In this document: positions 45,987 through 47,667 of the stretch, piece after piece
Numbering within the stretch: the first letter of the stretch is position 1
Layout: every line of letters starts with the position of its first letter
NCBI GenBank assembly: GCA_964445485.1
Contig: CAYUPS010000001.1
Location: 76,941-140,940, forward strand
Reading direction: 5' to 3'
Length of the DNA stretch: 64,000 nucleotides
Source of the DNA: an uncultured Methanosarcinales archaeon
GTDB taxonomy: Archaea > Nanobdellota > Nanobdellia > Woesearchaeales > ARS49
The notes under the pieces: model-generated
Seen by the model: the letters and a program-made list of their open reading frames with translations, nothing else
Told to the model about the DNA's origin: nothing
The model's database searches: none
Position numbers and translations under genes: made by a program

Positions 45987-46463
45987 ATGGCAAGCCGCGA
46001 CGACGTCATCTCGCCCTACGCGCACAGGACACAGGACATCAAGGACGCCGCAGAGCGCTACCTCTTCCTCGAGAGATTCCTCGCAGAGCGGCATGATGAT
46101 GAGCTCCTGCGCGAATTGCGCAGCATCCGCGAGATATGCATCCGATACATCAACGCCATCGTGGCCCATAAGCACAAACTCGAGCGCATCGCCTACGATG
46201 AAGAGAACAAACCGCTCGACCTCCAGCGCGCGATCGAGCTGGCCGACCAGTCCCGCAAGGCGACGCACGACGCCCTCATCGACTGCATCATCATCTTCAA
46301 CAGGACAATCAGCAAGAAATACGGATGGCAGAGCCAGGGCGGCAAGATACCCGTCGGCGGCGTGTACACGCTCGACCCGCGCTGCCTCAGCCACACCAAA
46401 GACTGCCGCTCCGTCGTCGGCGACTGGGCAGTCTGCCTCATCATCGGCCTCGAGCTGCGATGA
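45987..46463 (+). CDS. hypothetical protein (158 aa, no recognisable domain)
   Basis: Own TATA CATTAAAAAC 45954-45963 ~29 nt upstream; coding-like composition. Confidence 0.5.
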   Translation: MASRDDVISPYAHRTQDIKDAAERYLFLERFLAERHDDELLRELRSIREICIRYINAIVAHKHKLERIAYDEENKPLDLQRAIELADQSRKATHDALIDCIIIFNRTISKKYGWQSQGGKIPVGGVYTLDPRCLSHTKDCRSVVGDWAVCLIIGLELR

Positions 46464-46506
46464 CGTGCAAAACATTAAATAACCCGAAAACCGGGATTCT
46501 CGCCAG

Positions 46507-47667
46507 ATGACCACCGACAGCTGGCACGAGCGCGTGCGCGGACTGCGCTCCGATTTGAGCATGCCGCCGAGCGCAGAGCGCCTGCGCAGATGCCTCGCGC
46601 ACGCCCGTTCGCTGCTCGAGGAATTCTCGTTCTGGCGCGAGATCACGCAAAAACGGAGGTTGGAGCTCGGCGCCCTCCACGAAGACGCATTCGTTCGCGC
46701 CGCGTTCGAGGCGCAACGCCTCCTCGCCATCCTCCAGTCCGACCTGAAATCAGCGATGGCGGACTTCCGAGGCATGCCTGCGAAGCGCGACCGCGCCCTG
46801 CGCACGCTCGCCGAAGCTGCCAGAGCCATCACCTACGCCGAAGCGGCCGCCGACACGCTCACCACGGGACAGGAGGAAGCCAAAGCATTCCTCGCCCAGG
46901 CAGGGCTCTCGCGCGAGGAGATCCGCGCACTCCTGCCGCATGCGCTCACCGCGCCGCGCCCCCTGCTCCTCCTGCGAAACCGTCTCGCGGATCCCACGAC
47001 CGCGCGCATCCCGCTCAGGGACACCATCCTGCGCAACAGGGAGAAGAGCATCAGCAACGACGAGTGGACAGCGCGGTTGCGCCTGTGGGCCGAAGCCCTC
47101 TCCGGCCCTCTCGCGCCCGCCGAGACCTTCCTCATCCACGACGCCTTGCCAGGGCTGCTCGCGTGCATCAGCGCCAACCGCATCAAAGCGATACTGGCGC
47201 TCATGCCGAGCGCGCTCGCCCTCGGCATCGCGCTGCACCGCGCCCAACAACTTATCATGCCGGGCATGCATCTTGACATCGCGCTCTACACGCCAAAAGA
47301 CATCACGCACCACAACATCGCAGGCCACGCCCGCCACGTCGGCGAGACGCACCCGCGGCTGCGCCAGATCATCGGCAACGGCGGCGCAGTCCTCATCCTC
47401 GACCGCGTCGCCGAGCACAATCGGTTCGCGGCCGTCGAAGCAGTCCTCGCGCAGCTCGGCCACGGCGTCTTCCTGCGCGGCGCGCTGCTCGCATCCAGCA
47501 AAGAACGCCACGGCCTCGCCTACTGCCACCATTCACTTCCGCGTATCCTCCCGAAAGCGCTCGGCCTGCCCGAGCCGCCCCTCAGCACGACAGTCTCTGA
47601 CGTGCACAAGGCGCAGCCACGCCTTGCGGACCAGATGCTCGCGATCGCGCAGCTCCTGCGCGGCTGA
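46507..47667 (+). CDS. hypothetical protein (386 aa, His-rich C-terminal half, possible weak HD-like motif LIHDALPG)
   Basis: Own TATA CATTAAATAA 46474-46483 ~29 nt upstream; no confident domain assignment. Confidence 0.55.
   Translation: MTTDSWHERVRGLRSDLSMPPSAERLRRCLAHARSLLEEFSFWREITQKRRLELGALHEDAFVRAAFEAQRLLAILQSDLKSAMADFRGMPAKRDRALRTLAEAARAITYAEAAADTLTTGQEEAKAFLAQAGLSREEIRALLPHALTAPRPLLLLRNRLADPTTARIPLRDTILRNREKSISNDEWTARLRLWAEALSGPLAPAETFLIHDALPGLLACISANRIKAILALMPSALALGIALHRAQQLIMPGMHLDIALYTPKDITHHNIAGHARHVGETHPRLRQIIGNGGAVLILDRVAEHNRFAAVEAVLAQLGHGVFLRGALLASSKERHGLAYCHHSLPRILPKALGLPEPPLSTTVSDVHKAQPRLADQMLAIAQLLRG

What the first reader, a model, noticed from the sequence alone, without database searches (positions are those of the whole stretch)
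45987..47667. Two orphan proteins (158 aa and 386 aa), each with its own CATTAAA(A/T)A TATA box, between the translation gene cluster and the surface-protein island
Both ORFs have coding-like composition and individual promoters at the canonical ~29 nt spacing (45954-45963; 46474-46483). Neither shows a motif I can assign. The 386-aa product has a His-rich C-terminal half (HHNIAGHARHVGETHP, LIHDALPG) that might be a degenerate metal-dependent (HD-like) site; the 158-aa product is acidic and helical. The pair is unannotatable yet promoter-bearing, which makes it a candidate lineage-specific module.
Basis: seen in the sequence. Interest (0 to 1): 0.5.

Follow-up and report, generated by a model that had tools for sequence, protein, structure and literature searches.

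The report
One DUF3232 homolog, one true orphan
Both genes look real and each has its own archaeal promoter, but the small one belongs to a known bacterial plasmid-associated family of unknown function (DUF3232), the large one has no relative in any database searched, and nothing shows they work together.

Summary
Both ORFs exist at the stated coordinates: 45987-46463 (158 aa) and 46507-47667 (386 aa). Both have native-like codon statistics. Each has a BRE/TATA-like box 33 nt upstream of its ATG, the same leaderless geometry as about 16 other genes in the window.

The 386-aa protein is a true singleton. It matched only itself in an exhaustive search of 1.84 billion representative proteins. It has no Pfam, NCBIfam, PADLOC or credible PHROG match. 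It is basic (pI 10), rich in Ala, Leu and Arg, and His-rich in its C-terminal half. The HD-like idea has no support.

Three Woesearchaeota-like relatives share ArgRS-S17e-Alba but lack both genes. The pair therefore sits at a synteny break. No co-occurrence supports calling it a module. This is an ordinary accessory-gene finding with a minor cross-domain curiosity.

The parts
45910..45918 (+). T-rich tract GTTTCTTCT just after the Alba stop codon. It is a probable oligo-T terminator ending the S17e-Alba transcript.
   Evidence: Read directly from the sequence. The terminator role is inferred from general knowledge of archaeal oligo-T termination and was not tested.
45949..45961 (+). BRE/TATA-like promoter of the 158-aa gene: AAGC ATTAAAAA. 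The TATA-like octamer is at 45954-45961, 33 nt from its first A to the ATG.
   Evidence: CATTAAAWA occurs only twice in the window. The geometry matches about 16 other genes, which have a T/A hexamer 28-33 nt upstream of the ATG. Weight-matrix rank is 38 of 127,964.
45987..46463 (+). 158-aa gene, a divergent archaeal member of DUF3232 (PF11554), a helical bundle.
46469..46481 (+). BRE/TATA-like promoter of the 386-aa gene: AAAAC ATTAAATA. The TATA-like octamer is at 46474-46481, 33 nt from its first A to the ATG. It lies inside the 43-nt gap after the 158-aa gene's stop codon.
   Evidence: Weight-matrix rank is 31 of 127,964.
46483..46495 (.). Small hairpin CCCGAAAACCGGG between the TATA box and the ATG of the 386-aa gene. 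Its role is unknown.
   Evidence: Reported by the terminator-like scan on the minus strand. No T-run follows it on the + strand.
46507..47667 (+). 386-aa singleton ORFan. It is basic (pI 10.0), 42% Ala+Leu+Arg, predicted all-helical, and His-rich in residues 211-367. Its stop codon abuts the stop of a convergent 970-aa Cys-rich ORF (TGATCA).
   Evidence: It matched only itself among 5.8 billion clustered proteins and in an exhaustive phmmer search of 1.84 billion representatives. No Pfam, NCBIfam or PADLOC match, and only one sub-threshold PHROG match at E=0.067. No plasmid or phage tblastn hit. Codon log-likelihood 0.50, uniform in one frame. Composition. AlphaFold2 pLDDT 45.

Best explanation
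These are two separately promoted, leaderless accessory genes. They lie at a synteny breakpoint just downstream of the conserved ArgRS-S17e-Alba block of a high-GC archaeon related to Woesearchaeota MAGs.

Gene 1 (158 aa) is a divergent DUF3232 helical-bundle protein. The relatives retrieved here are from Desulfuromonadales-type bacteria, where the gene sits in plasmid or conjugative-element arrays beside SSB, RecT and PD-(D/E)XK nuclease genes. It was most likely acquired across domains long ago, possibly through a mobile element. It is now expressed from a native archaeal promoter. From its small all-helical fold with a conserved polar patch (D87, R90, H94, R106, D146-W147), I infer a non-enzymatic binding or adaptor role tied to DNA-entry or DNA-processing proteins, or to defence evasion.

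Gene 2 (386 aa) is a real but singleton protein. It is basic, Ala/Leu/Arg-rich and helical, with a His-rich C-terminal half. I infer it is a soluble nucleic-acid- or metal-binding protein that is young or fast-evolving.

Shown: gene reality statistics, promoter geometry, DUF3232 membership, singleton status, absence from syntenic relatives. Inferred: horizontal origin and both biochemical roles. The two genes are probably neighbours by insertion history, not an obligate module. Read-through from gene 1 into gene 2 is possible because no T-run separates them.
For: - Coding statistics.
- Promoters.
- DUF3232 membership.
- Bacterial mobile-element context of DUF3232. Five of six metagenomic or genomic contexts contain SSB, RecT, TSCPD, PDDEXK_1, AAA_5/bpMoxR, DUF3150, CobT/VWA, TraH or ParA genes. 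Plasmids pGSUB1 and pPRO1 carry it next to SSB, PD-(D/E)XK nuclease, AcaB regulator, DUF6094 and primase genes.
- SSB genes mark leading-region or anti-defence islands of conjugative elements that also hold many uncharacterized genes (PMC11541004).
- Singleton status of the 386-aa protein.
- Synteny break: L001, L002 and L004 share ArgRS-x-S17e-Alba. After Alba they carry a methyltransferase, a convergent surface protein, or an HD protein instead.
Against: - There is no expression or protein evidence.
- The function of DUF3232 is untested anywhere. No paper mentions it.
- The archaeal copy lacks the SSB/RecT/nuclease neighbours.
- It shares only 22-29% identity with the bacterial members, so neither the direction nor the age of transfer can be resolved.
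- The DUF3232 sample was retrieved through words shared with 2RDC. It is therefore biased toward Geobacter-type sequences, and other archaeal members may exist.
- The 386-aa protein has the most extreme Ala+Leu+Arg content of the genes compared (42% against 22-37%) and a poor structure model. That is also what a non-functional GC-rich ORF would give.
Confidence: 0.62

Rival explanations
1. The two genes form a functional two-gene module, a DUF3232 protein plus a lineage-specific partner. It could be a remnant of an archaeal mobile-element establishment or anti-defence cassette, or a toxin-antitoxin-like pair. They would be co-transcribed, with an extra internal promoter.
For: They are on the same strand with a 43-nt gap and no T-run terminator between them. 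Both are absent together from syntenic relatives. The promoter boxes are near-identical, and CATTAAAWA is unique to these two sites. Bacterial DUF3232 genes lie in mobile-element islands.
Against: The 386-aa protein has no homolog, so co-occurrence cannot be shown. Bacterial DUF3232 neighbours show no similarity to it. There is no PADLOC hit for either protein. hhalign gives no relation between the two proteins, probability 0.04. Each gene has its own full promoter.
Confidence: 0.15
2. The 386-aa ORF is not a functional gene. It would be a chance or decaying open frame in GC-rich DNA.
For: It is a singleton in all databases. AlphaFold2 pLDDT is 45. Ala+Leu+Arg reaches 42% and R/(R+K) is 0.80, both at the extreme of the genes compared.
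Against: The GC1>GC2<<GC3 pattern and the codon log-likelihood of 0.50 place it in the upper, gene-like mode of the 126 ORFs of at least 150 aa. The signal is uniform over 1.16 kb and all five other frames are negative. The first ATG of the open frame sits at the canonical distance from a top-0.03% promoter match. No alternative-frame ORF has a Pfam hit. It fills the space exactly up to the convergent gene's stop codon.
Confidence: 0.12
3. The stretch from orf158 to the tRNA-Arg gene (about 45.9-50.7 kb) is an integrated mobile-element remnant that brought in DUF3232, the ORFan and the Cys-rich surface protein together.
For: tRNA-Arg lies 3 kb downstream. DUF3232 is borne on mobile elements in bacteria. 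The Cys-rich ORF has atypical codon statistics, log-likelihood 0.065. Synteny with relatives ends at Alba.
Against: No direct repeat or att-like copy of the tRNA end flanks the region, and only short chance-level repeats were found. The 45.9-47.7 kb stretch carries only these two ORFs, neither with an integrase or transposase match; the adjacent 970-aa ORF has no Pfam hit at all. No phage or PHROG link was found. The codon usage of orf158 is fully native-like.
Confidence: 0.1
4. The 386-aa protein is a degenerate HD-type metal-dependent phosphohydrolase.
For: There is an HD doublet at residues 211-212 and a His cluster at 268-282.
Against: There is no PF01966 or other HD-clan match, for the whole protein at E<=1 or for the C-terminal half at E<=10. 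There is no similarity to a genuine HD protein found beside Alba in relative L004. No PDB sequence match beyond E=0.6.
Confidence: 0.03

Closest known systems
DUF3232 (Pfam PF11554), represented by PDB 2RDC, GSU0061 of Geobacter sulfurreducens, deposited as a 'putative lipid binding protein'
   Different: The host is archaeal and the promoter is an archaeal leaderless one. Identity to the bacterial members is only 22-29%. It has extra segments around residues 114-118 and 132-140 that include two Cys. It lacks the SSB/RecT/nuclease plasmid-type neighbourhood.
Uncharacterized genes of leading-region or establishment islands of conjugative plasmids and ICEs (PMC11541004)
   Same: Bacterial DUF3232 genes sit in unidirectional arrays of small genes with SSB, recombinase, nuclease, helicase-methylase-like (DUF6094) and primase genes, on plasmids or near TraH and ParA genes.
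   Different: That paper does not mention DUF3232 (no 'DUF' term). oriT and leading-strand position were not determined here. The archaeal copy is chromosomal, beside housekeeping genes.
Lineage-specific ORFans of DPANN and other small archaeal genomes
   Same: The 386-aa protein has no detectable homolog, a native promoter and native codon usage, and lies at a variable genome position next to large surface-protein genes.
   Different: Nothing sets it apart as a class beyond its His-rich, basic, Ala/Leu/Arg-rich composition.

Membership tests
DUF3232 (PF11554), for the 158-aa protein | Match to the family HMM above the curated gathering score | tested here: met
   32.1 bits against a cutoff of 27.4, E=1.4e-7, covering residues 6-128 and profile positions 7-124 of 152. 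The database's precomputed Pfam tag is also PF11554.
DUF3232 (PF11554), for the 158-aa protein | Conservation of the family's invariant residues | tested here: met
   R24, D37, Y54, L79, D87, R90, H94, I98, F104, R106, G124, G125, P131, R141, D146, W147, A148 and L151 are invariant across 19 sequences including this one.
DUF3232 (PF11554), for the 158-aa protein | Fold of the solved representative 2RDC | tested here: met
DUF3232 (PF11554), for the 158-aa protein | Typical genomic setting: a bacterial mobile-element array with SSB, RecT and PD-(D/E)XK nuclease genes | tested here: not met
   The window neighbours are Alba and S17e upstream and the ORFan downstream. This is a feature of context, not of the protein family definition.
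HD-domain phosphohydrolases (PF01966), for the 386-aa protein | Match to the HD profile | tested here: not met
   No HD-clan hit, at E<=1 for the whole protein or E<=10 for residues 201-386.
HD-domain phosphohydrolases (PF01966), for the 386-aa protein | H...HD...D metal ligands arranged on the HD helical fold | tested here: inconclusive
   An HD doublet exists at residues 211-212, but the structure model there has pLDDT below 35, so the geometry cannot be judged.
Archaeal BRE/TATA promoter with leaderless mRNA, for both genes | A/T-rich octamer preceded by a purine-rich BRE, placed so that the transcription start falls at or next to the ATG | tested here: met
   The box lies 33 nt upstream of the ATG in both genes. 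About 16 other genes have it at 28-33 nt. Weight-matrix ranks are 31 and 38 of 127,964.
Archaeal BRE/TATA promoter with leaderless mRNA, for both genes | Mapped transcription start site | not testable with these tools
   No transcript data are available.
Known anti-phage defence or toxin-antitoxin systems | Match to a PADLOC model | tested here: not met
   No hit for either protein at E<=1.
Conserved two-gene module | Co-occurrence of the two families across genomes | tested here: not met
   The 386-aa family has one member only. Neighbours of 15 bacterial DUF3232 loci show no similarity to it.

The most novel reading that the evidence does not exclude
A gene family otherwise retrieved here only from Desulfuromonadales-type bacteria, mostly on plasmids and conjugative elements, crossed into a DPANN-type archaeon. 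It was put under a native leaderless promoter and now works together with a newly arisen basic, His-rich protein. The pair would be a lineage-specific module, for example handling incoming DNA or interacting with a host or mobile element. The 386-aa protein would then be a de novo or extremely fast-evolving archaeal gene.
Probability: 0.1. Interest if true: 0.45.

Novelty: new member of a known kind. Interest (0 to 1): 0.25.

Why it matters
The practical value is modest. It corrects an annotation: one 'orphan' is DUF3232, with a solved homologous structure. It documents that bacterial DUF3232 genes keep company with SSB, RecT and nuclease genes on plasmids and conjugative elements, which gives an untested family a testable setting. 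It also records a single distant archaeal member, a small case of cross-domain gene sharing. The 386-aa singleton adds one more well-supported ORFan to the large unknown fraction of small archaeal genomes. No long-standing question becomes testable through it.

Tried and rejected
- Homology of the 386-aa protein. All searches were negative or sub-threshold: Pfam, NCBIfam, PADLOC, PHROGs (one match at E=0.067), PDB sequences (best E=0.62), the word-indexed 5.8-billion search, exhaustive phmmer over 1.84 billion representatives, and tblastn against plasmids and phages.
- Structure of the 386-aa protein. The single-sequence AlphaFold2 model is poor (pLDDT 45). Foldseek returned only generic four-helix bundles (FAT domains, E>0.3) for the N-terminal ~130 residues. 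I treat these as uninformative.
- Alternative frames and the antisense strand across 45.9-48.2 kb have no Pfam hits and negative codon scores.
- The two proteins are not paralogs.
- The 386-aa protein has no paralog in the window.
- No similarity between the 386-aa protein and neighbours of bacterial DUF3232 genes, or to the HD protein beside Alba in relative L004.
- No flanking repeats or att sites.
- No Rfam family in the region.
- No viral DUF3232.
- The look-up of encoding contigs and the listing of cluster members gave no contig or organism name for the source. The source genome did not appear among the GTDB representatives returned.
- The afdb50 fold library was unavailable.
- The literature holds nothing on DUF3232, GSU0061 or PF11554.

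Full report
**1. What is in the sequence**

The window has about 62% GC, so long spurious ORFs are common. I therefore tested coding potential.

- GC at codon positions 1/2/3 is 0.60/0.38/0.85 for the small ORF and 0.71/0.49/0.84 for the large one. ArgRS nearby gives 0.63/0.39/0.87, and overlapping alternative ORFs show shifted 'shadow' patterns.
- I trained a codon log-likelihood on 17 confident genes of the window. It gives 0.79 and 0.50 per codon, against a training range of 0.38-0.92.
- All other frames across 45987-47667 score negative. The signal of the 386-aa ORF stays in one frame along its whole length.
- Among all 126 ORFs of at least 150 aa, both fall in the upper, gene-like mode.
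- No alternative-frame or antisense ORF has a Pfam match.

**2. Promoters**

- CATTAAAWA occurs exactly twice in the 64 kb, at 45953-45961 and 46473-46481. Chance expectation is 0.12, and no shuffle of 100 reached 2.
- In both cases the A of ATTAAA is 33 nt upstream of the first ATG of the open frame.
- This is the genome's general pattern. About 16 other coding-like ORFs, including ArgRS, carry a T/A hexamer 28-33 nt before their ATG, usually preceded by AAG or AAA. Most transcripts are therefore leaderless or nearly so.
- A weight matrix built from 16 of those other sites ranks the two boxes 31st and 38th of 127,964 positions.
- A T-rich tract (45910-45918) follows the Alba stop codon. No T-run separates the 158-aa stop from the 386-aa ATG. 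Read-through is therefore possible, but this is inference.

**3. The 158-aa protein is DUF3232**

- It matches Pfam PF11554 above the gathering score (32.1 against 27.4 bits, E=1.4e-7).
- It matches PDB 2RDC at E=4e-8.
- I aligned it with the 2RDC fragment and used that alignment to retrieve 18 bacterial homologs.
- In the 19-sequence alignment it shares 22-29% identity with them, yet it keeps every one of the 18 invariant columns.
- With that alignment, AlphaFold2 gives pLDDT 85.6 and pTM 0.78.
- The model hits 2RDC by Foldseek (prob 1.00, TM 0.81).
- Its pI is 7.0, not acidic.
- No paper in the library mentions DUF3232, GSU0061 or PF11554. The function is unknown. The PDB title 'putative lipid binding protein' is the depositors' guess.

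**4. Where DUF3232 lives**

Metagenomic and genomic contexts:

- Five of the six contexts examined are unidirectional arrays of small genes.
- These arrays contain SSB, RecT, TSCPD, PDDEXK_1, AAA_5/bpMoxR, DUF3150, CobT/VWA, pentapeptide and DUF6094/ResIII genes.
- TraH or ParA genes lie nearby.
- The sixth context borders a type III CRISPR locus.

Plasmid collection:

- Only two of 72,556 plasmids carry DUF3232: Geoalkalibacter pGSUB1 and Pelobacter pPRO1.
- In both it lies beside SSB and PD-(D/E)XK nuclease genes.
- pGSUB1 also has an AcaB-family regulator nearby. pPRO1 has DUF6094 and primase genes nearby.

Interpretation and caveats:

- SSB-containing islands of this kind are characteristic of the leading or establishment regions of conjugative elements, which hold many uncharacterized genes (PMC11541004). 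That DUF3232 acts in establishment or defence evasion is my inference, not a result.
- No viral copy was found.
- The homolog set was retrieved through words shared with 2RDC. It is biased toward Geobacter-type sequences, so other archaeal members cannot be excluded.

**5. The 386-aa protein is a true singleton**

- It found only itself among 5.8 billion clustered proteins.
- It found only itself in an exhaustive phmmer scan of 1.84 billion representatives.
- Its cluster has one member, from one 194-kb NCBI contig.
- Pfam, NCBIfam and PADLOC gave nothing credible; PHROGs gave one match at E=0.067 and PDB sequences a best E of 0.62. Plasmids and phages gave nothing.
- It is basic (pI 10.0) and 42% Ala+Leu+Arg, against 22-37% in the reference genes. 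Its R/(R+K) is 0.80.
- It has 18 His residues, 14 of them in residues 211-367 (p about 8e-5, post hoc).
- The single-sequence model is poor (pLDDT 45). Only the N-terminal ~140 residues form a moderately confident helical bundle. Foldseek returns only generic four-helix bundles at E>0.3.
- The HD-like suggestion fails. There is no PF01966 match even for the C-terminal half at E<=10, and no similarity to a real HD protein from relative L004.
- It is unrelated to the 158-aa protein, and to any neighbour of bacterial DUF3232 genes.

**6. Genomic setting**

- Upstream lie ArgRS, S17e and Alba. Further up are L31e, a dsDNA-binding protein and proline dehydrogenase.
- The ArgRS query found Woesearchaeota-labelled MAGs as the closest relatives, at 54-55% identity.
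- Three of them (L001, L002, L004) share ArgRS-x-S17e-Alba, with Alba 74-77% identical.
- Directly after Alba they carry a methyltransferase, a convergent 1134-aa surface protein, or a convergent HD protein.
- Neither target protein is detectable within those loci.
- In L002 Alba is followed immediately by a convergent large surface protein. In the window, the two target genes occupy exactly that slot, and the 386-aa stop codon abuts the stop of a convergent 970-aa Cys-rich ORF (TGATCA).
- The 45.9-47.7 kb stretch holds only the two target ORFs. Neither matches an integrase or transposase family, and no att-like repeat flanks the region. tRNA-Arg lies 3 kb downstream.

**7. Verdict**

- One gene is a new, distant, apparently archaeal member of a known family of unknown function. 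The other is an ordinary but well-supported ORFan.
- Nothing demonstrates a functional pairing.
- The most likely history is insertion of accessory genes at a variable position. The DUF3232 gene probably arrived by old cross-domain transfer.
- Interest is low to moderate.

Noticed in passing
window 10719-10796 and 11022-11061: These are pure A/T tracts up to 44 nt long in a 62% GC window. Several top-scoring TATA-like sites lie on both strands and local GC dips to 0.55. They could be divergent strong promoters or an origin-like region.
   Followed up: no
window 43600-45273: The ArgRS is of a type shared by Woesearchaeota-labelled MAGs (54-55% identity) and many Bacillota (44-52%). This suggests a cross-domain ArgRS lineage.
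   Followed up: no
window 47668-50580 (-): A 970-aa Cys-rich ORF has no Pfam match and an atypically low codon score of 0.065. Its stop codon abuts the 386-aa gene's stop (TGATCA). The mechanical ORF listing (47668-50697) runs over tRNA-Arg(TCG) at 50615-50688.
   Followed up: partly
window 52811-63985 (-): A giant ORF of more than 3724 aa has gene-like codon statistics (log-likelihood 0.57). It lies only 15 nt from the window's end and may extend beyond it.
   Followed up: no
window 38775-38789: The palindromic box AAGTTTATAAATTTG scores as a top promoter on both strands. It lies 30-31 nt from the ATGs of divergent genes at 38755 (-) and 38809 (+), so it looks like a shared bidirectional TATA element.
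   Followed up: partly
window 51419-51525: tRNA-Pro(TGG) at 51455-51525 is preceded by the second-best TATA match of the window, at 51419.
   Followed up: no
window 46483-46495: A small hairpin, CCCGAAAACCGGG, lies between the TATA box and the ATG of the 386-aa gene. No T-run follows it on the + strand.
   Followed up: no
L099 (pGSUB1) 6370-9894; L100 (pPRO1) 7887-15574: On the only two PLSDB plasmids that carry DUF3232, the gene lies beside SSB and PD-(D/E)XK nuclease genes. pGSUB1 also has an AcaB-family regulator, and pPRO1 has DUF6094 and primase genes. This gives the uncharacterized family a consistent establishment-region-like setting.
   Followed up: partly
L004 11910-12434 (-): In one Woesearchaeota relative the gene next to Alba is a genuine HD-domain protein (PF01966, E=3e-8).
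   Followed up: yes
window 40118-41101 (-): A proline dehydrogenase (PF01619, E=2e-30) is encoded in what otherwise looks like a small DPANN-type genome region.
   Followed up: no
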